IMG/VR virus record: IMGVR_UViG_3300045988_154477
Length of the DNA: 64,000 nucleotides
Origin: a virus
Taxonomy: Duplodnaviria > Heunggongvirae > Uroviricota > Caudoviricetes
Strand: one strand, 5' to 3'
The notes under the pieces are model-generated. The model was not told where the DNA came from. It searched no databases and saw nothing but the letters and a program-made list of their open reading frames with translations. Numbering within the stretch: position 1 is the stretch's first letter; the number at the start of each line of letters is the position of its first letter. Position numbers and translations under genes: made by a program. Below are positions 25,967-38,170 of the stretch, piece after piece.

Positions 25967-26200
25967 ATGGGAAAATTAACTTTTGTTGTCGAATTTGAGG
26001 ATGGCAAAGAGCCACCTGTTAGCGCCAATCTTGATGTTGCTGGTGGCAGGCTGGTTTCGGTTCTATTTGGTGATTACCGCGACGACTTCTTTCAGCCTGA
26101 AGAAGTTGATGTAGTGCGAGAGGCATTAAACGAGTTAAGTGTTGATAACGATGATGCTCATGCGGAAATCATCCAAAAAATGGAACTGCTAACTCACTAA
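25967..26200 (+). CDS. hypothetical protein
   Basis: 77 aa ORF. Confidence 0.45.
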   Translation: MGKLTFVVEFEDGKEPPVSANLDVAGGRLVSVLFGDYRDDFFQPEEVDVVREALNELSVDNDDAHAEIIQKMELLTH

Positions 26201-26248
26201 ATTATCAATTATGGTGCTATCACCTACGACACCGAGAGAAAATTTATA

Positions 26249-26371
26249 ATGTCAAAAGTAAATGTTTTGATTTTTTCAGCAATTGTTGGCTTTGGTTTTA
26301 CTGCCGGAGTGCAGATTTATATTACGTGGGAAAAAATCATCAACTACGCATGGAGTTGTTTTATTAAGTGA
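26249..26371 (+). CDS. hydrophobic micro-ORF (40 aa)
   Basis: MSKVNVLIFSAIVGFGFTAGVQIYITWEKIINYAWSCFIK. Confidence 0.3.
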   Translation: MSKVNVLIFSAIVGFGFTAGVQIYITWEKIINYAWSCFIK

Positions 26372-26378
26372 GGTAAGT

Positions 26379-26672
26379 ATGTGGAGAGGTAATAGTCATG
26401 GCAAAAGCCAGATGATACTTACCGAATATCAGTTTGACCATAAAACCAATAAATCACGTTCAGTATATTTGCTTCGGCACAATAGCCGCGTAAGGAATAC
26501 CGTGCTGGAGCAAAATCTGACAGTTGAAATGGATAATTACGGGGGCTTCAAGCCAACAATTTCGCTTGATGATTTTCCTCGTGGTTTAAGCGAAAGAGAA
26601 GCAATGCTGAAATTAGCAGAATGGCTACAAAGATTAAGCATTGCTATTGAAGATAACTGGTCTGAACCTTAA
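26379..26672 (+). CDS. hypothetical protein
   Basis: 97 aa from internal ATG 26379 (track ORF 26283..26672). Confidence 0.4.
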   Translation: MWRGNSHGKSQMILTEYQFDHKTNKSRSVYLLRHNSRVRNTVLEQNLTVEMDNYGGFKPTISLDDFPRGLSEREAMLKLAEWLQRLSIAIEDNWSEP

Positions 26673-26678
26673 ATTTAT

Positions 26679-27053
26679 ATGATGACACTAAAACATTTTC
26701 TTGACCGCCCATTATGGGCGGCAGCCGCAGGCTATGACTTTAATTATATGGATTGCATGTCTTATACTGCCAATGCATACGACCATGCGTTCAGCCTACT
26801 GTTTAATTCTTTAAGAATATTGCCGGAAACAGAAGTTGGAGAGCTTCATTTATGGATATTGAGCTTTATCGCGGCAGTCGTTGGTATTGCTGTATGGCCT
26901 TTTATTTTCTGGCTGGTGGCTGTTGTAGTGTGGTTTAAGTGCAAGACATACCGGAGAAAGTATTTCTTAGGTGATGGAATGACCGATATTGCCAAAATGA
27001 ACATTGAAAAATGGACTAAGGAATGTGAAAAGAAATGGCGCAAAAAGAAATGA
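26679..27053 (+). CDS. membrane protein
   Basis: 124 aa; two hydrophobic segments, Lys-rich C-terminus. Confidence 0.5.
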   Translation: MMTLKHFLDRPLWAAAAGYDFNYMDCMSYTANAYDHAFSLLFNSLRILPETEVGELHLWILSFIAAVVGIAVWPFIFWLVAVVVWFKCKTYRRKYFLGDGMTDIAKMNIEKWTKECEKKWRKKK

Positions 27054-27967
27054 CCAGAATCACTGAAGAGCGTATATCAGAGATTATTTCCCGTATCGAA
27101 ATGTATGGTCACGGTGCTGGATATACGGCAGATGAAGTATTGGCACTTGCCCAAATGGCTTTGGCGGCTTGCAAAGATGATAAAAAAATGAAGCTTATCG
27201 ACTTGTTAGTGAAGGAGCTGCCTAAGTGCGGCGGGTGGCCTGATGGAATGAGTTATTGTTACCTACCCAGTGTCAATTTAATGGCACCATGCGCGACTTT
27301 TGCTTTTGGCTCAGACCACAAAAAAGACACTTTCTTTGGGCGCAATTTTTGTTGTGAGATTGAGCTTCCAATTGGTGACCTTGATAGCGATGAATACCAG
27401 TCAGTTGTCACTCGCGAACAATACGAATCAGCTCTCATAGCGTCGCAGAAAGTCGAGTTCAATGGTGATGAACTTGAAAGTAAGACTTACAGGTTGGATT
27501 TTGGGCAATGGCTGGAACAGCAACGCGGGAAAATCGATGTGGACTGTGGTTGTGTGTCCACTGAAACATTCATGCACTGGCTGCGGGTAGCTTACGAGGC
27601 TGGCAACTATCCGGATATTCCGGATAGTTCGGTGCCAGCGCCAGGAAAGGGCGTCACCGGTGAACGTATCCGAATTAAGCCGCATGTTTATCGCGAACTG
27701 GTTAACCGCCTCCACGATACAGCGGTCAAGTGTGCTGGCACCCAGCAATTACGAGAAAGAATTAGCCGTGTTTTGGGCGACGTTATTACGCCAGATCATC
27801 ATAAACAAGCCGAGAAAAGTGACCTGGAAAGGTGTCACCTTGAGGCGGCATTAAACATTAAGCCGGGGCATACGCTTGGCATTATTGATGCACTGTTGGT
27901 TCATAAGATGGCCAGGGCTTTATTGTCGTTGGTGGACGCTGGTGATACAAGCGAGGGTGAAGTATGA
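27035..27967 (+). CDS. hypothetical protein
   Basis: 310 aa ORF. Confidence 0.55.
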   Translation: MAQKEMTRITEERISEIISRIEMYGHGAGYTADEVLALAQMALAACKDDKKMKLIDLLVKELPKCGGWPDGMSYCYLPSVNLMAPCATFAFGSDHKKDTFFGRNFCCEIELPIGDLDSDEYQSVVTREQYESALIASQKVEFNGDELESKTYRLDFGQWLEQQRGKIDVDCGCVSTETFMHWLRVAYEAGNYPDIPDSSVPAPGKGVTGERIRIKPHVYRELVNRLHDTAVKCAGTQQLRERISRVLGDVITPDHHKQAEKSDLERCHLEAALNIKPGHTLGIIDALLVHKMARALLSLVDAGDTSEGEV

Positions 27968-28326
27968 GAGTTGCAGATCACATCAAACACCTTGAAAGAA
28001 TTATCGAAAACGGTGAACTCTTAAGAGATCAGATGAGACGCACGGCAGAAGCCAGGGAGGCGATAATCCGCAGTCAGGCTGGTAAATTAAAGCAATTGTC
28101 AGAGATTAACACGCTATACAAGAACAGACGTAACCGGGCGGTGATGCGGCTTCAGAAAGCACGTAATGAAATTAAATTGGTGGAGGCAAAACTGAAAAAA
28201 CAGATCCAGCGTTACGATCAGCAAGATGCTTTTTATGCCGCCATCAAGGCGGCTGCTAATGAAATAGGCATCTGGAAGTTGCTGGTGGAGAAAGCAAAGA
28301 CGAAGTTAAATGCCAACGAAAGCTGA
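27964..28326 (+). CDS. coiled-coil protein
   Basis: 120 aa; ATGA overlap with upstream gene. Confidence 0.5.
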   Translation: MRVADHIKHLERIIENGELLRDQMRRTAEAREAIIRSQAGKLKQLSEINTLYKNRRNRAVMRLQKARNEIKLVEAKLKKQIQRYDQQDAFYAAIKAAANEIGIWKLLVEKAKTKLNANES

Positions 28327-28401
28327 ACTACAGGTGCCCACCAGCACATACAGAAAATGATTGTTTCCACATCAAGGAGATTTTAATGTTTCACTGAAAC
28401 A

Positions 28402-28539
28402 TTAAGTAAGCCAGTGCATAATTCCATTTTTTACTGACCTTAAAAGCAAAATCAAAACGATGATGAGGATAATAGCCAGAATCTGGCTAATAATAGGCGC
28501 ATCTAAAAATGCACTCAGGAACTGAAAAAAAGCGTTCAT
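28402..28539 (-). CDS. 45-aa hydrophobic peptide in AT-rich intergenic island (small membrane protein or type I toxin-like)
   Basis: MNAFFQFLSAFLDAPIISQILAIILIIVLILLLRSVKNGIMHWLT; only plausible ORF in the 28327..29401 gap. Confidence 0.3.
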   Translation of the reverse strand: MNAFFQFLSAFLDAPIISQILAIILIIVLILLLRSVKNGIMHWLT

Positions 28540-29401
28540 TCAGGTGGTTCCTTGTCAAATGTAAAGGTGCACTTGCTCACGTTGACGTAGAAACCCAACC
28601 CCTATATAGTTGGATTCGGTGAATGAAAGTCGTTAACGTGAGCTTACGGCACATGTTTTCGGAAAAACATCAGGGAACGGCTAATTCCTTGATGCGGGTG
28701 GGGTCTGTAATGCAGACCCTATCTATTAACGTCATGATTGCATCTCAAATTTTCTCCTTATCTTCAATTAATCTACATTCATTTCATCTGTTAGCCACCA
28801 CAATATGTAGAAAATGGCCCTCTTGCAAGTGCATAACTTTGTGGATAACTCAGGAAGGAAAAAGTGGCTTTCGCGCACCTTCGGTCAGACAAGGTGTCCG
28901 GGAAAGTCAACGCAAAGAAAAAAATTGTTAAAAATAACGTTTGTTGGAATTGTATATTTTTATCCCCTTCAATGGTTAGCATTCTATTAACATCTTTTTT
29001 TAGAGACAGAAAAACATATCGTAACAACATATATACAGTGTTAAGAGGCGAGTATTATCCTGCGGTGGGAATTCTGGGCGCTGTTAGATTCGACTTTCTC
29101 AGCAGGATTACATCGTCAACTTGCGACGTTGCCGTATGACTTTCGTGTGATAGGTGACAATGATGCGGCTAGTGAGTTACTTGTGAAGTTTTTCGGAAAA
29201 GGTTTTGTGGCCTCGGATCTTGATGAGCTACAGCAACATGAAGTGTCTAATTTGATTTTTAGCCATAGCCAATAAGCCTCCCTCCTCCATCAAGGCCACA
29301 ATTTGTGACCTTAAACAATTTGTTTTCTGCTTTTTCTTATTTGAGAAAATAACGTTGTTGACAGCTAATAGGCTCGTTGTTGTTATACATGCCTGTATAG
29401 A

Positions 29402-29758
29402 TTATGACCGTAAATTATTAGCGGATTTTAAGCCATATTCACCGTTGTAGAAATTACTTATGTTCCACTCATTAGGAAGTTCTTTTCTGTCCAATGTATA
29501 GTGGCGCACGATATAACGATCTTCATCTTCTTCGATGGACAGGCGGACATAGCCAATGTGAATCACCGATACGGGCGGTGTTCGTATTGCATAGATGTCG
29601 CGGAGATATACCGGCAGCTCGACAAATGCATCAGGTGCATCTGTGATGCTCGTTTTTTCACAGTATTCATATAACGCATCGTTGATATCGTTAAGAGATT
29701 CATGATCGTATATTTCCAGGTAATTACCGCGATAGCGATGGTACTCGACTTTAGCCAT
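29402..29758 (-). CDS. hypothetical protein
   Basis: 118 aa; start abuts stop of upstream gene. Confidence 0.5.
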   Translation of the reverse strand: MAKVEYHRYRGNYLEIYDHESLNDINDALYEYCEKTSITDAPDAFVELPVYLRDIYAIRTPPVSVIHIGYVRLSIEEDEDRYIVRHYTLDRKELPNEWNISNFYNGEYGLKSANNLRS

Positions 29759-30073
29759 TCAAAATCCCCTGTTATCGTTTTGCATTTCTCTAATCCGGTT
29801 CAGAACTACTTCGTGCTGGACTTGGATAGCGGCTTTTTCGTTTTCAAGCCGGGCAATAGACATCTCTAATTCTTTGCTGTACCAGGCGAGCCGGGCCAGG
29901 TTCATCCGGTTGTGGTCGAGAGTTGGAGACACTTCGACGCGATCCCTTTCTTCCTGCTTTAATGAGAAGAGATTCATCTCATCCCTTGAGGAAAATTCAG
30001 CAACAATTTCTTGTTGATGATCCGGTCGCTGCGGCATCCTCGCCAGTATAAATGGCGGTTCTTTTGAAAACAT
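29759..30073 (-). CDS. hot: DNA polymerase III theta-subunit-like protein (P1 Hot candidate)
   Basis: C-terminal region (LKQEERDRVEVSPTL...) resembles HolE/theta as recalled; internal ATG at 29977 would give a 72-aa theta-sized product; full ORF reported. Confidence 0.45.
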   Translation of the reverse strand: MFSKEPPFILARMPQRPDHQQEIVAEFSSRDEMNLFSLKQEERDRVEVSPTLDHNRMNLARLAWYSKELEMSIARLENEKAAIQVQHEVVLNRIREMQNDNRGF

Positions 30074-30127
30074 GAATGTCGGTTCAGACCGTGTTTTTAC
30101 CCAGCTTGCCTGCTGTCTTTCGGCAAG

Positions 30128-30343
30128 TTAACAGGCTTCATCATAGTTATCTGCCAAACAAAGCACGGATGGACGGTCCCACGCCCCACCATTCAGACAA
30201 TAAACTACAATTTTCCCGTCAGGTTGTGTAACCCCATATGGATGGTCCCACCAGGCGTCCAGCTGAGTTTTAGAGCGTTTCTCGTTAGGAGTGCAGTCAA
30301 AATTTTTGGGCAATACAGGATCGAGAGGAATGCGATTAGGCAT
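30128..30343 (-). CDS. lxr: small protein at P1 lxr position
   Basis: 71 aa; named by position between hot and humD. Confidence 0.5.
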   Translation of the reverse strand: MPNRIPLDPVLPKNFDCTPNEKRSKTQLDAWWDHPYGVTQPDGKIVVYCLNGGAWDRPSVLCLADNYDEAC

Positions 30344-30478
30344 AGCTAATTCCTTATTAACTGATTGGCAACGAGGTTACGCTGATCCGTTGGTGATGAA
30401 TAGTAGCAAAGAGCACAAAATCATCAGCGGTGGTTGATGTACGTAACGCGTTTGCACCAAAGGTGTCTCTTTAATGTA

Positions 30479-30498
30479 TACTGTATAAATGAACAGTA
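30479..30498. promoter_or_regulatory. LexA (SOS) box TACTGTATAAATGAACAGTA
   Basis: CTG-N10-CAG with AT-rich spacer, 20 nt upstream of humD ATG. Confidence 0.8.
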
Positions 30499-30517
30499 TT
30501 ATTGGGGTGAAAACGCT

Positions 30518-30907
30518 ATGGGCTTCCCTTCTCCTGCGGCGGATTATGTTGAAAGCCGAATTTCTCTTGATCAGCAACTAATCAGGCATCCATCAGCAAC
30601 CTACTTCATGCGGGCAGCTGATAGCCATCACCGTGAGGGAATATTGCAGGGTGCTTTGCTGGTGGTTGATTCCTCGCTTACTCCGGTTGATGGTTCTCTG
30701 CTTGTGTGCGCTATGGAGGGTGAATATCGCATAAAGAGATACAGGAAGTATCCGCGCCAGCACCTGGAGGATTTAAGCACCGGGAAGAAAGAGGCGTTAC
30801 CAGTAGATGACGATGGATGCACGGGCAGTAATGCTGTTTTTGGTGTGATCACTCATGTCATCAATGATGCCCGAAGTGGGGAGTTTGATGATTGTCCGGT
30901 TATTTAA
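30518..30907 (+). CDS. humD: UmuD' homolog
   Basis: 129 aa from ATG 30518; UmuD/LexA C-terminal peptidase S24 fold; LexA box immediately upstream. Confidence 0.85.
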   Translation: MGFPSPAADYVESRISLDQQLIRHPSATYFMRAADSHHREGILQGALLVVDSSLTPVDGSLLVCAMEGEYRIKRYRKYPRQHLEDLSTGKKEALPVDDDGCTGSNAVFGVITHVINDARSGEFDDCPVI

Positions 30908-30979
30908 GCTGCAAAGGGCTGGTGCTTTATGCCTGTGAGGTTTATGATTGTGTACACATAACGAGTACACGAGGTGTTT

Positions 30980-31201
30980 ATGCAATCCATTAACTTCCGT
31001 ACCGCGCGCGGCAACCTTTCTGAAGTGCTCAACAATGTTGAAGCCGGGGAAGAGGTTGAAATCACCCGCAGAGGCCGTGAGCCAGCAGTAATTGTCAGCA
31101 AGGCTACTTTCGAAGCCTACAAAAAAGCGGCGCTGGATGCTGAATTTGCATCCCTGTTTGACACCCTGGACTCCACCAACAAGGAACTGGTTAACCGATA
31201 A
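30980..31201 (+). CDS. phd: Phd antitoxin
   Basis: 73 aa [39 protein letters not shown]... matches P1 Phd as recalled; ACGAGGTG SD. Confidence 0.9.
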
Positions 31202-31581
31202 TGAGGCATATATCACCGGAAGAACTTATTGCGCTTCATGATGCGAATATAAACCGCTACGGCGGCCTGCCTGGCATGTCAGATCCGGGCAGGGCAGAGG
31301 CCATTATCGGGAGAGTCCAGGCCAGAGTTGTGTACGAAGAGATTACCGACCTTTTCGAAGTCTCCGCAACCTACCTGGTGGCTACTGCGAGAGGGCATAT
31401 ATTCAATGATGCCAATAAGCGTACCGCGCTAAACAGTGCGCTGTTATTTCTACGCCGTAACGGGGTGCAGGTATTTGATTCACCTGAACTGGCAGACCTT
31501 ACCGTAGGGGCTGCGACCGGAGAGATATCTGTATCTTCTGTCGCCGACACGTTACGTAGATTGTATGGTTCCGCAGAGTAG
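31201..31581 (+). CDS. doc: Doc toxin (Fic-fold kinase)
   Basis: 126 aa; Fic motif [11 protein letters not shown]; TAATG overlap with phd. Confidence 0.9.
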
Positions 31582-31765
31582 ATTAATGGCACGTAAATAC
31601 AACAAATTGTCCCGTGAAGCGTTAAAGATGCTTCTTGATGGCGTGAGTCGCCGCGAGGTAAAGCAATACCTGGTTGGTAAGCAAATTGGTGCCAGGACCG
31701 CTATTGCTGTGTTATGCCGTCAGGAAATGGTTGTGCTTAAACAGAGAATGCCGGGCAGCAGATAA
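31565..31765 (+). CDS. small protein downstream of doc
   Basis: 66 aa ORF overlapping doc end; P1 pdc position. Confidence 0.4.
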
Positions 31766-31792
31766 AGCCCAATCAGTGATGAAAGGTGTGAT

Positions 31793-32836
31793 GTGAAAGC
31801 CGTAATTACTCCCTTTGTACAAAAAGAGCTTGGCGTCGCCACATTCAAAGTGGATCAGGAAGTCAGAAAGCTGGTGGAGGCTGGCCGTAAATTTATTATG
31901 GAGCCGGTGCCGCGTGAGTTAATCGAGCACATGGACGACGGCCTCGTTGTTTCCGAGCAGACTATGGCAACAAATGAGGCGTTGCAGCCGTTTTTTAACA
32001 GCGATGAACTGTTTCGCCGTATTGGTGGAATTGACGCGCTGGTGGCGTGGTTGCGTAGGAAAGAGGGTCAATGCCAGGCCGCAGATCGTAGTTGGTGTGA
32101 CAACCATATTGTCCACGCTGAACGAGACAATAGCGCGGTGTTGTTGTGCTGGCATCACGATAACCATTACCGGATGCGTGGTTTTAATGAGCTGAAAGAA
32201 ACGCTGCATAATAATCGCGTTAACTGGATACTGGATGTCGCCCGTCAGGAAATGGGGCTTTCAGATGGCCATGATTTAAGTATTCAGGAACTGTGCTGGT
32301 GGGCTTTCATGCGCAACATGATGCACCTGATGCCGGAAGAAGTTTGCCGTATATCAATAAATAAGATGAAAGCCGCAACGCAGGATAGCGGACCTCTGAA
32401 AGAGGCGGATATTCGCCCGTATGACGATCGCGCTACAGCATATGTTCAGATGATGGAAGAACGCGCCGCGCCGATGCGTGCAAAAGTATGCCCTGTGGAT
32501 GTTGACTCCGACCCTGGCATGGCGCATTTTAAAATACCAAAACTTCAATCGCTAAAATTGCCCGAGTACATGGATTTTGTGGCTTCCCGTCCATGCTGTG
32601 GCTGTGGAGCTGCGGGAGCTGGCGCTCACATTACGCCTTATATCGTTCGTCATAGTCGATTATGCGCGCATGACATTTATGCTATTCCTCTGTGCCAGTC
32701 ATGCCAGCGTGATATTGAGCGTGACCGCGATAATTGGGAGAAGACGCACGGTAGGCTGGCGATGCATCAACGATTGTTCTTTGATTACGCGCTTGGAGTC
32801 GGCGCTATCACAAGTCATTCGTCGAGCGTTAGATAA
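31793..32836 (+). CDS. hypothetical Cys/His-rich protein downstream of doc
   Basis: 347 aa; GTG start with AAAGGTG SD; C-terminal PCCGCGAAG...CAHD...CQSCQ cluster. Confidence 0.55.
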
Positions 32837-37017: not shown

Positions 37018-37110
37018 TGATCCTCCTCCAGAATTGACATGGCCAACAACTCACAGCGGATTACACTGGGAGTTGTTGGCCACCATTATAGAAGGATCCA
37101 ACGAAAATAA

Positions 37111-37127
37111 TAGATTTATTAGTGCAT
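37111..37127 (-). promoter_or_regulatory. C1 operator-like site (ATGCACTAATAAATCTA) between coi and c1
   Basis: 14/17 match. Confidence 0.5.
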
Positions 37128-37337
37128 TTATTGTGAGTCTGGCTGGTTAGTGGCCATGAGATATTCGATTGTGTCAGTGAGATCATCCAGGTCGTCTTGG
37201 GTGATGCGGTACTCCTGATTGGATATCTTTGAGTAGTGTTCAGCAATGGCGCGGGCAGCGTCGGTTTCGGCGGGGTCTACAGATAAAGCGTTAGAGCAAT
37301 GTCTAACGTCGTCGATGGTTGGTGGAATGAAAGCCAT
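37128..37337 (-). CDS. coi: C1 inactivator
   Basis: 69 aa acidic protein immediately upstream of c1. Confidence 0.75.
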   Translation of the reverse strand: MAFIPPTIDDVRHCSNALSVDPAETDAARAIAEHYSKISNQEYRITQDDLDDLTDTIEYLMATNQPDSQ

Positions 37338-37575
37338 AATTATGCCTCACTGTATTGACAACACAGAGCCTGAAGCTCTGACCTACTGTTTCACCCATGA
37401 TCCATGCTGGGGTAATCTAACAACATTGCGCTGTGTGTAAGATGAGCAATGCATAGCTGTAATGCCGTTGTATAAGGTTTCCCTGTTTGCTCATTTCCTT
37501 CTGAGCCGCTCTACAACGCTGAAGACACATTAAATAGTGAATCCAAAGTCGTATTACGAAACGGCGGCAAAACTA

Positions 37576-37592
37576 TAATTTATTAGAGCAAT
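37576..37592 (-). promoter_or_regulatory. C1 operator (ATTGCTCTAATAAATTA)
   Basis: 16/17 match; upstream of coi-c1. Confidence 0.6.
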
Positions 37593-37658
37593 TGTCAAAC
37601 AACTATGAAAAACAATCCAGTTTTTGGCTGGTGGAGTGGGATTTTTCTCTCAAAATTT

Positions 37659-37675
37659 ATTGCTCTAATAATTCT
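37659..37675 (+). promoter_or_regulatory. C1 operator (ATTGCTCTAATAATTCT)
   Basis: core match; 44 bp from loxP. Confidence 0.55.
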
Positions 37676-37718
37676 TGATTTTTATGCGCAGCTGGACGTA
37701 AACTCCTCTTCAGACCTA

Positions 37719-37752
37719 ATAACTTCGTATAGCATACATTATACGAAGTTAT
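37719..37752. other. loxP site (Cre recombination target)
   Basis: exact ATAACTTCGTATA-GCATACAT-TATACGAAGTTAT. Confidence 0.97.
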
Positions 37753-37941
37753 CTTAAGGGTTATTGAACATGATCAATTTACCTGTAAATCCATACAGTT
37801 CAATACCTTATCAGGTCAAATAGTGATCACTTGATCATTTGATCAAGGTTGCGCTACGTAAAATCTGTGAAATGTTGGCAGTGTTAGTGCTCCAGATTTC
37901 GCGTAGCGCACTTAGCACCACCAATCAATCAGAGGTGAAAA

Positions 37942-38163
37942 ATGGGATATTCAGCTGCTAAAGTGTCCACTCATATTGAGCTTGAGAAAAACCGTGGTTA
38001 CTGGCGGGCAAAAGGGTTTGATCGTGATAGTTGTCAACTGTCATTATCGCGCGGTGAAGAGAAAATAGAACGCACGCGCGGTCGCTGGCGTTTCTATGAC
38101 GAGAACCATAAACAGGTAAAGGCAGAGCCGATCCTGTACACTTTACTTAAAACCATTATCTGA
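37942..38163 (+). CDS. hypothetical small protein upstream of cre
   Basis: 73 aa; AGAGGTGA SD. Confidence 0.4.
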   Translation: MGYSAAKVSTHIELEKNRGYWRAKGFDRDSCQLSLSRGEEKIERTRGRWRFYDENHKQVKAEPILYTLLKTII

Positions 38164-38170
38164 GTGTTAA

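What the first reader, a model, noticed from the sequence alone, without database searches (positions are those of the whole stretch)
28327..29401. AT-rich 1-kb gene-poor island with a 45-aa hydrophobic micro-ORF and an outward promoter-like element
In a genome with almost no intergenic space, this 1.07-kb stretch has no credible long ORF. It contains a minus-strand 45-aa strongly hydrophobic peptide (28402..28539), a 7-bp hairpin (28699..28717) and a plus-strand TTGACA-N17-TGTTAT element (29358..29386) that would transcribe antisense to the convergent gene block ending at 29402. It could hold a type I toxin/small RNA pair or another regulatory RNA.
Basis: seen in the sequence. Interest (0 to 1): 0.45.

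Follow-up and report, generated by a model that had tools for sequence, protein, structure and literature searches.

The report
Recombination scar hiding peptide–antisense RNA module
This AT-rich gap in a P1/P7-like phage-plasmid is half decayed gene fragments and half a conserved, mostly unannotated module (a 45-residue membrane peptide, a structured antisense RNA candidate, and a promoter copied from the host nrdA gene) that looks like a type I toxin–antitoxin pair but has not been shown to be one.

Summary
The window is a P1/P7-like phage-plasmid. The gap 28327..29401 is real and AT-rich (39.4% GC against 48.5%, lowest 1% of same-size windows), but it is a mosaic.

Right half, 28903..29401: scars from SSU5/pHCM2-like phage-plasmids. 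These are a humD leader with half its LexA box deleted, and the last 66 codons plus terminator of a toprim/primase gene.

Left half, 28336..28935: conserved in P1 (about 96%) and in SSU5-like plasmids (about 77%). It holds:
- the 45-aa hydrophobic ORF on the minus strand. Start, stop, Shine-Dalgarno and length are kept, dN/dS is about 0.4, it is intact in all 75 complete loci, and PGAP calls it in P1-type plasmids;
- a much better conserved 190-nt non-coding block with a plus-strand promoter (TTGACG-17-TATAGT) and three hairpins (fold z = -5.6);
- a copy of the E. coli nrdA upstream region (71/71 nt identical, DnaA boxes, -35) aimed leftwards through that block toward the ORF.

This layout resembles hok/sok or ldr/rdl. 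No known toxin or antitoxin family matches, covariation is thin, and no transcript or toxicity data exist. The type I toxin reading is plausible, not proven.

The parts
28402..28539 (-). Conserved 45-aa single-pass hydrophobic peptide gene (MNAFFQFLSAFLDAPIISQILAIILIIVLILLLRSVKNGIMHWLT)
   Evidence: ORF list. Same 45-codon length, ATG and stop in window-type, P1-type and SSU5-like DNA, with no indels. dN/dS about 0.41. Neutral simulation: P(intact ORF) = 0.115, P(intact and at least as similar) = 0.014. Intact in all 75 complete loci. Called by PGAP as WP_000123562.1 in P1-type plasmids.
28548..28553 (-). Shine-Dalgarno AAGGAA, 8 nt upstream of the micro-ORF ATG
   Evidence: Read from the sequence. 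SSU5-like relatives keep GAGGA at the same spacing although the surrounding bases have changed.
28582..28610 (+). Sigma-70-like promoter TTGACG-N17-TATAGT (annotated PupfN in P1). It would start a plus-strand RNA near 28617-28619.
   Evidence: 10 of 12 consensus match. Both hexamers and the spacer are invariant apart from one base in all three DNA groups. Annotated as a predicted promoter in NC_005856.
28575..28643 (.). 13-nt inverted repeat (GCTCACGTTGACG / CGTTAACGTGAGC) bracketing the plus-strand promoter. It could be an operator pair, or a leader hairpin of the minus-strand mRNA.
   Evidence: Inverted repeat I7. Invariant in all groups. No further copies in the window beyond chance.
28617..28728 (+). 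Candidate structured small RNA, possibly running on to 28762. Three hairpins: H1 28630..28662, H2 28668..28694, H3 28696..28724 (core 28701..28719).
   Evidence: Minimum free energy -43.2 kcal/mol, z = -5.6, against -27.9 kcal/mol and z = -2.9 for the opposite strand of the same interval. G-U pairs form only on the plus strand. One compensatory U-A to C-G change and two G-U to A-U changes in H3. H2 stem essentially invariant (only its closing pair differs in SSU5-like) while its loop carries 3 changes. Plus-strand ORFs are not conserved. No Rfam family matches.
28800..28848 (-). nrdA-type promoter pointing leftwards: -10 TATTGT 28800..28805, -35 TTGCAA 28823..28828, DnaA boxes 28828..28836 and 28840..28848. 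Predicted start near 28793.
   Evidence: The -35 and the 17-nt spacing match the E. coli nrdA promoter, whose inferred -10/-35 place the start about 108 nt upstream of the nrdA ATG. Annotated as 'nrdA-like promoter' and 'dnaA box' in M95666. Coordinates.
28810..28935 (.). Copy of the E. coli chromosomal nrdA upstream / ypaB region
   Evidence: 28810..28880 is 100% identical to a segment found in 5426 of 5426 complete E. coli genomes, upstream of nrdA. The alignment extends with a few mismatches to about 28935, and the homology breaks 4 nt upstream of the -10.
28903..29058 (+). Decayed leader of a humD (S24 peptidase) gene of the SSU5-like type. Only half of the LexA box survives (29030..29040), and the start codon is lost.
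   Evidence: Alignment with L005 shows an 11-nt deletion that removes the left half of TACTGTATGTATATACAGTA, and homology stops at the humD ATG.
29064..29356 (+). Remnant of a toprim/primase gene: the last 66 codons plus its terminator hairpin (29292..29312) and T-rich tail
   Evidence: 89.5% DNA identity to L004. 56 of 66 aa identical to residues 109-174 of the 174-aa toprim protein. The 48-aa ORF matches phrog_17952, 'DNA primase', C-terminus. P7 carries an IS903 insertion at about 29148.
29358..29386 (+).
   Evidence: Not reported by the promoter scan.

Best explanation
The island is a recombination junction in a known variable region of P1-like phage-plasmids.

Right half (28903..29401): non-functional debris imported from SSU5/pHCM2-like phage-plasmids. 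It holds a humD leader with a broken LexA box and the 3' end of a primase gene with its terminator.

Left half (28336..28935): a conserved three-part module.
1. A promoter copied from the host nrdA gene (DnaA boxes plus -35, with its own -10) fires leftwards from about 28793. This step is inferred.
2. Its transcript would carry a leader of about 250 nt and then the 45-aa membrane-peptide ORF, which has its own Shine-Dalgarno. The ORF is shown to be conserved; its transcript is inferred.
3. A convergent plus-strand promoter at 28582..28610 makes a three-hairpin RNA of about 110-150 nt. This RNA is fully complementary to the middle of that leader. The promoter and fold are conserved; the transcript is inferred.

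The most likely mechanism is cis-antisense control of a small membrane peptide, laid out like hok/sok or ldr/rdl type I toxin-antitoxin loci. The plus-strand RNA would pair with the leader and block translation or trigger decay. The nrdA/DnaA-type promoter would tie peptide expression to the replication status of the host. Whether the peptide is toxic is not known.
For: Mosaic structure and remnants.

Micro-ORF:
- 45 codons kept with no indel at about 26% nucleotide divergence, while the flanks have indels. Shine-Dalgarno kept. dN/dS 0.41. Substitutions mostly I/V, L/F, R/K.
- Neutral simulation p about 0.014.
- Intact in all 75 complete loci.
- Called by PGAP in P1-type plasmids.
- A possible 33-aa homologue sharing AFLxAP[ILV][ILM]SQ lies in unannotated gaps of IncFII plasmids.

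Non-coding block:
- 28576..28762 is about 90-97% identical between elements whose flanks are 57-77% identical.
- Plus-strand ORFs are broken in SSU5-like relatives.
- Fold z = -5.6 on the plus strand against -2.9 on the minus strand.
- One compensatory pair, and loop-only changes in H2.

Promoter:
- 71 of 71 nt identical to the E. coli nrdA upstream region.
- Same orientation toward the ORF as toward nrdA in the chromosome.
- -35 and spacing preserved.

Distribution: the module occurs in 216 of 5426 complete E. coli genomes, in 222 of 223 places on plasmids.
Against: - No transcript evidence. In a P1vir lytic RNA-seq preprint, plus-strand signal simply decays pmgV > upfM > upfN > upfO, with no sign of an abundant independent plus-strand RNA. 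Small RNAs and lysogens were not assayed there.
- Covariation is thin: 30 of 35 pairs never vary and there is only 1 compensatory pair. 101 of 500 shuffles do as well.
- H3 is not followed by a clear U-tract, so the 3' end of the RNA is undefined.
- The hybrid promoter has only a 4/6 + 4/6 consensus match, and its -10 is weaker still in SSU5-like relatives (TACTGT).
- Only about three independent lineages are available, so the ORF statistics rest essentially on one comparison.
- No match to any toxin family in Pfam, NCBIfam or PHROGs, or to any antitoxin RNA in Rfam.
- No complementarity between the RNA and the ORF's ribosome-binding region beyond shuffles. Control therefore requires the long leader to exist.
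- From memory of Lehnherr et al. 1993 (paper not held here): host killing on loss of P1 mapped to doc alone. This argues against strong post-segregational killing by this module.
- High identity of the block could partly reflect recent exchange between plasmid families rather than selection.
Confidence: 0.4

Rival explanations
1. The plus-strand promoter and hairpins are a leader, attenuator or small RNA serving the downstream plus-strand genes hot and humD. These genes follow the block in P1, in P1-type plasmids and in SSU5-like plasmids. In this phage hot has been replaced by debris, so the element is an orphan. The micro-ORF would be an unrelated, non-toxic small membrane protein with its own short transcript.
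For: In L001 (P1), L147 and L006 the order is block, then nrdA fragment, then hot, then humD, all on the plus strand. H3 looks like a weak terminator or attenuator. The RNA has no complementarity to the ORF's ribosome-binding site beyond chance.
Against: The block is kept at 96% identity or better in the window type, which has no downstream plus-strand gene. The micro-ORF and the block always occur together. No good minus-strand promoter lies between the block and the ORF (and inspection). P1 has its own late promoter, LPhot, just before hot.
Confidence: 0.22
2. The conserved block works at the DNA level. The inverted repeat around the promoter and the DnaA boxes would bind proteins (for example DnaA titration or a regulator). 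The micro-ORF would be a fortuitous open frame, and no functional small RNA would be made.
For: The promoter spacer and the 13-nt inverted repeat are invariant, which promoter function alone does not need. Covariation support for the RNA fold is statistically weak. Two DnaA boxes were copied from the host.
Against: The fold asymmetry between strands and the G-U pairs point to RNA. ORF preservation has p about 0.014, with the Shine-Dalgarno retained. The inverted-repeat motif does not recur elsewhere in the window.
Confidence: 0.15
3. The whole gap, including the left half, is non-functional recombination debris that hitch-hikes with neighbouring genes. The apparent conservation would reflect recent exchange among phage-plasmids.
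For: The region lies in 'variable region 8' of P1-like phage-plasmids (PMC9603915). upfN and upfO were scored non-essential for lytic growth by CRISPRi; upfM was not tested there (no PAM site), but all three are listed non-essential from a cited deletion survey (PMC10695390). The right half is demonstrably debris. P7 tolerates an IS903 insertion here.
Against: Divergence is strongly uneven within 500 nt (57% to 100% identity). The ORF is never disrupted in the 75 complete loci, and indels avoid it. The same module sits in two unrelated phage-plasmid families.
Confidence: 0.15

Closest known systems
hok/sok (plasmid R1) and ldr/rdl (E. coli) cis-antisense type I toxin-antitoxin loci
   Same: A small single-pass hydrophobic peptide of 45 aa. 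A long leader upstream of the ORF. A short structured RNA whose gene sits inside the leader on the opposite strand with its own strong promoter. Location on plasmid-like elements next to another addiction module (phd-doc).
   Different: No sequence match to Hok/Gef, Ldr, Fst or any NCBIfam type I toxin, and no Rfam match to Sok, Rdl or other antitoxin RNAs. No overlapping mok-like frame reaches the toxin ORF. The RNA is longer, with three hairpins. The toxin promoter is a captured nrdA/DnaA-type promoter. Toxicity and pairing are untested.
tisB/istR-1 and dinQ/agrB (stress-induced type I systems of E. coli)
   Same: The putative toxin would be wired to a DNA-replication or damage-responsive promoter, and it sits in a cluster of SOS/replication genes (hot, humD, lxr).
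   Different: The control element here is a DnaA-box/nrdA-type promoter, not a LexA box. The RNA would be fully complementary (cis) rather than a divergent partial match. No sequence similarity.
P1 upfM / upfN / upfO and P7 upf91.3-91.7 annotations, PupfN, and the 'nrdA-like promoter' with DnaA box (NC_005856, NC_050152, M95666)
   Same: Same DNA: the left half is 96.6% identical to P1 and at least 99% identical to P7. The plus-strand promoter and the nrdA-like promoter were already annotated there.
   Different: Those records annotate plus-strand ORFs that are not conserved in SSU5-like relatives. They do not annotate the conserved minus-strand 45-aa ORF or any RNA.
E. coli nrdAB promoter region (ypaB-nrdA intergenic)
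   Same: 71 of 71 nt identical, including two DnaA boxes and the -35 TTGCAA. Same orientation relative to the downstream transcript.
   Different: Homology stops 4 nt upstream of the -10. The -10 is TATTGT instead of TATCTT. The region that in E. coli lies at and just downstream of the -10 (NrdR boxes, as I recall them) and the nrdA leader are absent.

Membership tests
Type I toxin-antitoxin system (generic definition) | Small (under 60 aa) hydrophobic or membrane peptide ORF that is genuinely coding | tested here: met
   45 aa, GRAVY 1.56, one predicted transmembrane segment. ORF, Shine-Dalgarno and length conserved; dN/dS 0.41; neutral-model p about 0.014.
Type I toxin-antitoxin system (generic definition) | An antisense RNA is transcribed and base-pairs with the toxin mRNA | tested here: inconclusive
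   Conserved promoter and a strongly folding plus-strand element. Full complementarity exists only if the mRNA starts at the nrdA-type promoter. No complementarity to the ribosome-binding region otherwise. No transcript data. The lytic RNA-seq shows no abundant plus-strand RNA.
Type I toxin-antitoxin system (generic definition) | The peptide is toxic when expressed without the RNA, and the RNA neutralises it | not testable with these tools
   Needs inducible expression and co-expression experiments.
Hok/Gef, Ldr, Fst, TisB, DinQ/Dql, Ibs, ShoB, Zor toxin families | Sequence match to the family profile (Pfam or NCBIfam) | tested here: not met
   No such family appears at E <= 10 for any of the three peptide variants. 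No PDB relative. A resemblance of the D-AP-I-I-x-x-I-L-A stretch to Ldr/Fst is from memory only.
Known antitoxin or regulatory RNA families (Sok, RdlD, IstR, OhsC, Sib, SymR and others in Rfam 15) | Covariance-model match | tested here: not met
   No hit at E <= 1 in 26000..32000, and none at gathering score in the whole window apart from 3 tRNAs.
E. coli nrdAB promoter | Homologous upstream region with DnaA boxes and the -35 at conserved spacing | tested here: met
   71 of 71 nt identity, boxes at 28828..28836 and 28840..28848, TTGCAA plus a 17-nt spacer.
E. coli nrdAB promoter | Native -10, NrdR boxes and nrdA leader | tested here: not met
   Homology ends at 28809/28810. The -10 is replaced by TATTGT, and the E. 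coli sequence at and downstream of its -10 is absent.
Toprim-domain primase gene (SSU5-like phage-plasmids) | Full-length ORF including the catalytic N-terminal part | tested here: not met
   Only residues 109-174 of 174 are present, at 85% identity. Homology starts abruptly at 29064. This is a gene fragment.
LexA-regulated promoter (SOS box) | CTGT-N8-ACAG palindrome | tested here: not met
   An 11-nt deletion relative to L005 leaves only ...TATATACAG (29030..29040).

The most novel reading that the evidence does not exclude
P1-like and SSU5-like phage-plasmids carry a previously unrecognised type I toxin-antitoxin family: a new 45-aa membrane toxin and a new three-hairpin antisense RNA. The toxin promoter would be a captured copy of the host nrdA/DnaA-box promoter, so that toxin synthesis reports the host's replication-initiation or dNTP status. 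This would be a second, RNA-controlled addiction or stress module next to phd-doc in a classic model phage.
Probability: 0.3. Interest if true: 0.6.

Novelty: new member of a known kind. Interest (0 to 1): 0.4.

Why it matters
P1 is a textbook phage-plasmid whose only recognised addiction module is phd-doc. If the module is real, three things follow:
- It would add an RNA-controlled small membrane peptide to P1 biology.
- It would show a phage-plasmid re-using a host cell-cycle promoter (nrdA/DnaA) to time a peptide.
- It would correct the current annotation, in which the plus-strand ORFs upfM/upfN are probably spurious and the conserved minus-strand ORF is missing from the P1 and P7 records.

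The right half documents DNA exchange between two otherwise unrelated phage-plasmid families (P1-like and SSU5/pHCM2-like), and between both families and the E. coli chromosome. If the module turns out to be inert, the finding is an ordinary recombination scar.

Tried and rejected
- Rfam scans of the region at E <= 1 and of the whole window: nothing but 3 tRNAs.
- Pfam, PHROGs and NCBIfam scans of all gap ORFs. The only informative hits were the primase fragment, and PHROGs of unknown function for previously annotated ORFs.
- PDB profile search with the peptide alignment: no hit.
- Peptide searches of 5.8 billion and 1.84 billion protein sets: only near-identical or C-terminally altered copies.
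- The metagenome scan found only the same three lineages.
- Plus-strand coding of upfM, upfN or the 102-aa ORF: rejected, because of stops and a frameshift in SSU5-like relatives.
- A 21-codon minus-strand leader ORF (28735..28670) stays open, but its changes are almost all non-synonymous, so it is not treated as a protein (by inspection).
- Trans pairing of the RNA with the ORF's ribosome-binding site: no better than shuffles.
- An 11-nt match of the H2 loop to the lxr-like ribosome-binding site is at chance level and is not conserved.
- The inverted-repeat motif as a repeated operator: no other copies.
- Nucleotide similarity between the IncFII 33-aa locus and this locus outside the ORF: none.
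- Literature: no paper describes this ORF or RNA. The Lobocka 2004 P1 genome paper is not held.
Full report
**Identity of the window and of the gap**

The 1.8 kb around the finding is 99.4-99.7% identical to P1/P7-type phages (Punavirus P1 MH422554, P7, SJ46). Only its left half matches the reference P1 genome, at 96.6%. The gap 28327..29401 lies between the pmgV homologue (27964..28326, +) and Upf93.6 (29402..29758, -).

- In P1 the corresponding stretch is annotated with upfM, upfN, upfO, the predicted promoters P1/P2upfM and PupfN, a 56-bp similarity to an E. coli region with DnaA boxes, the late promoter LPhot, and hot.
- GenBank M95666 labels a minus-strand 'nrdA-like promoter' and a DnaA box here.
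- P7 annotates upf91.3-91.7 and carries an IS903 insertion at about window 29148.
- The region belongs to 'variable region 8' of P1-like phage-plasmids (PMC9603915).
- upfN and upfO were scored non-essential for lytic growth by CRISPRi. upfM was not tested there, but all three are listed non-essential from a cited deletion survey (PMC10695390).

**Check of the observation**

- The gap has 39.4% GC against 48.5% for the window, in the lowest 1% of 1075-nt windows.
- ORFs of 100 aa or more cover 88% of the window. Once the non-conserved 102-aa ORF 28623..28931 is set aside, this is one of the two largest ORF-free stretches.
- The 45-aa ORF coordinates are exact.
- The hairpin is at 28701..28719, 2 nt off the stated position.
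- TTGACA-N17-TGTTAT is at 29358..29386. Such matches are no more frequent than in shuffles: 3 observed against 3.9 +/- 2.1. The promoter scan did not list it, and its -10 lacks the A at position 2.

**The gap is a mosaic**

A blastn search against plasmids split the gap into pieces with different relatives.

1. **28336..about 28900.** This piece is shared with P1 and, at about 77%, with about 110-kb SSU5/pHCM2-like phage-plasmids. In those plasmids it sits in a 1.1-kb unannotated gap upstream of hot and an S24 peptidase (L006).
2. **28810..28880.** This piece is 100% identical to a chromosomal segment present in 5426 of 5426 complete E. coli genomes, annotated ypaB and lying just upstream of nrdA.
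   - The alignment runs with a few mismatches to about 28935.
   - In the chromosome, oriented like the window, nrdA lies to the left on the minus strand.
   - The E. coli -35 (TTGCAA), 17-nt spacer and -10 (TATCTT) predict a start about 108 nt upstream of the nrdA ATG, which agrees with the leader length I recall for this promoter.
   - The window keeps the DnaA boxes (28828..28836, 28840..28848), the -35 (28823..28828) and most of the spacer. Homology stops 4 nt before the -10, where the window has TATTGT (28800..28805) at the same spacing.
3. **28903..29058.** This piece matches the region just upstream of an S24 peptidase (humD-like) gene in L005. An 11-nt deletion removes the left half of the LexA box, and homology ends at the humD start codon.
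4. **29064..29356.** This piece is 89.5% identical to the 3' end of a 174-aa toprim-domain gene plus its terminator hairpin (29292..29312) and T-rich tail in L004.
   - The translated fragment matches residues 109-174, with 56 of 66 identical.
   - The 48-aa ORF 29129..29275 hits the C-terminus of PHROG 17952, 'DNA primase'.
5. **29357 onward.**

An 11-nt direct repeat, AAAATAACGTT, lies at 28931..28941 and 29346..29356, at or near segment ends. It may be the microhomology used in the rearrangements. The right half is therefore pseudogene debris, which explains why it has no credible ORF.

**The micro-ORF**

I collected 54 viral loci, several plasmid loci and 19 metagenomic loci. The DNA falls into three groups: window-type, P1-type and SSU5-like.

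- All three keep a 45-codon minus-strand ORF with the same start and stop and no indel. Indels do occur in both flanks.
- The peptides are MNAFFQFLSAFLDAPIISQILAIILIIVLILLLRSVKNGIMHWLT (window) and MIVFFQFLSAFLNAPVLSQVLAIVFIVVLIWFFKSVINRGVRWLI (SSU5-like). They differ at 19 of 45 positions, mostly I/V, L/F and R/K exchanges.
- Nei-Gojobori counts are 12 synonymous changes over 30.2 sites and 21 non-synonymous changes over 104.8 sites, giving dN/dS of about 0.41.
- The Shine-Dalgarno (AAGGAA at 28548..28553, 8 nt from the ATG) is kept as GAGGA at the same spacing in SSU5-like DNA, although neighbouring bases changed.
- I simulated 33 random substitutions with the observed transition bias. The ORF stays intact in 11.5% of trials. 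It stays intact and at least as similar in 1.4%.
- The ORF is intact in all 75 complete loci that carry the adjacent promoter motif. One locus has a replaced C-terminus.
- PGAP calls the ORF in P1-type E. coli plasmids (WP_000123562.1, 'hypothetical protein'). The SSU5-like version is deposited as a hypothetical protein.
- No Pfam, NCBIfam or PDB relative was found. A weak PHROG 1184 hit (E = 0.058) has unknown function.
- Large protein searches return only near-identical copies, some with altered C-termini.
- tblastn gives one more distant candidate (E = 0.1): a 33-aa ORF, MVLLLDAFLSAPLLSQCAATVFLLLLIWLKKME, preceded by AAGGAA.
  - It lies in unannotated gaps of 22 IncFII plasmids of Klebsiella, Enterobacter and Citrobacter, and shares the motif AFLxAP[ILV][ILM]SQ.
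  - One copy is 0.9 kb from an annotated DinQ-like type I toxin.
  - It is a lead only. Outside the ORF there is no nucleotide similarity.

**The conserved non-coding block**

Identity between the window and SSU5-like DNA is 57-77% in the ORF and flanks. It rises to 90-97% in 28576..28665, falls to 83% in 28665..28724, and is 93% in 28725..28754.

- Plus-strand ORFs here (upfM/upfN-type, and the window's 102-aa ORF) are broken by stops and a 1-nt insertion in SSU5-like DNA. The conservation is therefore not protein-coding on that strand.
- The block starts with TTGACG-N17-TATAGT (28582..28610), a 10 of 12 consensus match. Its hexamers and spacer are invariant except for one base.
- The promoter is bracketed by a 13-nt inverted repeat, 28575..28587 and 28631..28643. 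The repeat does not recur elsewhere in the window.
- An RNA starting at about 28617 folds into three hairpins (H1 28630..28662, H2 28668..28694, H3 28696..28724). The energy is -43.2 kcal/mol with z = -5.6.
- The opposite strand of the same interval gives only -27.9 kcal/mol and z = -2.9, because several pairs are G-U.
- Across the groups, H3 has one compensatory U-A to C-G change and two G-U to A-U changes. The H2 stem is essentially invariant (only its closing pair differs in SSU5-like) while its loop carries three changes.
- Overall, 30 of 35 pairs never vary, 3 cells are broken, and 101 of 500 shuffles score as well. The fold is therefore supported by thermodynamics, strand asymmetry and the placement of substitutions, not by significant covariation.
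- H3 is followed by UAUCUAUUAA, a poor terminator tail.
- Conservation continues to 28762 (CATCTCAAATTTTCTCCTTATC). On the minus strand this reads AAGGAG-N10-ATG and opens a 3-codon ORF and then a 21-codon ORF. The 21-codon ORF changes almost only non-synonymously.
- No Rfam family matches.

**How the pieces fit**

If the nrdA-type promoter is active, its transcript starts near 28793. It would run through the conserved block as a leader of about 250 nt and reach the Shine-Dalgarno and the micro-ORF. The plus-strand RNA would then be perfectly complementary to the centre of that leader. The two promoters would be convergent and about 176 nt apart.

This is the architecture of hok/sok and ldr/rdl, which I know from the literature on those systems. 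It is why I rank cis-antisense control of a small membrane peptide first. Without the long leader there is no meaningful complementarity to the ribosome-binding region. No convincing minus-strand promoter lies closer to the ORF (and inspection).

The module is found in 216 of 5426 complete E. coli genomes, in 222 of 223 places on plasmids.

**Evidence against, and limits**

- Nothing here shows transcription, translation or toxicity.
- A P1vir lytic-infection RNA-seq preprint reports log2 fold changes at 20 min of 8.1 (pmgV), 6.6 (upfM), 4.3 (upfN, not significant) and 2.2 (upfO). This looks like read-through from pmgV, not an abundant independent plus-strand RNA. Lysogens, small RNAs and the minus-strand ORF were not assayed.
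- From memory of Lehnherr et al. 1993, host killing on P1 loss depended on doc alone, although their clone contained this module. If so, strong post-segregational killing is unlikely, and a stress-responsive role would fit better.
- Only three lineages exist in all the collections searched, so the statistics rest on few independent comparisons. Recent exchange between plasmid families could inflate the apparent conservation.

**Verdict**

- The type I toxin / small RNA reading is partly supported for the left half and wrong for the right half.
- The DNA and several of its signals are already in the P1 and P7 records. The conserved minus-strand peptide gene, the candidate antisense RNA and their wiring to a captured nrdA promoter are not described in any paper I could find.
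- I rate the finding as a possible new member of a known kind (type I-like antisense-controlled membrane peptide). Interest is 0.4, and confidence in the mechanism is 0.4.

Noticed in passing
window 30128..30130 (minus strand; gene 29759..30343): The lxr-like gene (homologue of P7 upf94.2, 194 aa) carries a premature TAA where P7 has GAA. This splits it into a 71-aa and a 104-aa ORF, so it is a likely pseudogene or a sequencing variant.
   Followed up: partly
L125 2492..2593 and L126 2492..2593 (IncFII plasmids of Klebsiella and Enterobacter): An unannotated 33-aa hydrophobic ORF (MVLLLDAFLSAPLLSQCAATVFLLLLIWLKKME) with an AAGGAA Shine-Dalgarno shares the motif AFLxAP[ILV][ILM]SQ with the micro-ORF. 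It lies in a conserved module of about 215 nt. In L126 it is 0.9 kb from an annotated DinQ-like type I toxin, DqlB.
   Followed up: partly
window 28931..28941 and 29346..29356: An identical 11-nt direct repeat, AAAATAACGTT, lies within the right end of the nrdA-upstream copy and at the right end of the toprim-remnant homology. It may be the microhomology used in the rearrangements that built the gap.
   Followed up: no
window 28814..28990 (+): A 58-aa ORF begins exactly where E. coli ypaB begins and shares its first ~22 codons. P1 upfO and P7 upf91.6 are therefore carried-over ypaB fragments rather than phage genes.
   Followed up: partly
window 28681..28691 and 30345..30355: The same 11-mer, GCTAATTCCTT, occurs on the plus strand at both sites (H2 of the candidate RNA and the lxr-like gene region), so the H2 loop/3'-arm is complementary to the minus-strand Shine-Dalgarno region (AAGGAATTAGC) of the lxr-like gene. 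About four such matches are expected by chance, and the loop part is not conserved in SSU5-like DNA.
   Followed up: partly
window 28367..28378 and 28686..28697: A 12-nt inverted repeat with 11 of 12 matches could pair the minus-strand leader with the 3' untranslated region of the micro-ORF mRNA, reminiscent of hok fold-back inhibition. It is only partly kept in SSU5-like DNA and is within the chance range for this region.
   Followed up: no
window 28383..28405: A perfect 11-nt inverted repeat, TTAATGTTTCA / TGAAACATTAA, overlaps the micro-ORF stop codon. It has no U-tract on either strand and is not conserved in SSU5-like DNA.
   Followed up: partly
window 5518..5590, 5596..5668, 7299..7371 (+): Three tRNA genes, as expected for a P1-like genome.
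   Followed up: no
window 37018..38170: The largest stretch of the window (1153 nt) without any ORF of 100 aa or more. Not examined.
   Followed up: no
L002 3149..4205 (P7), equivalent to about window 29148: P7 carries an IS903 insertion inside the toprim remnant, which fits that part of the gap being dispensable.
   Followed up: no
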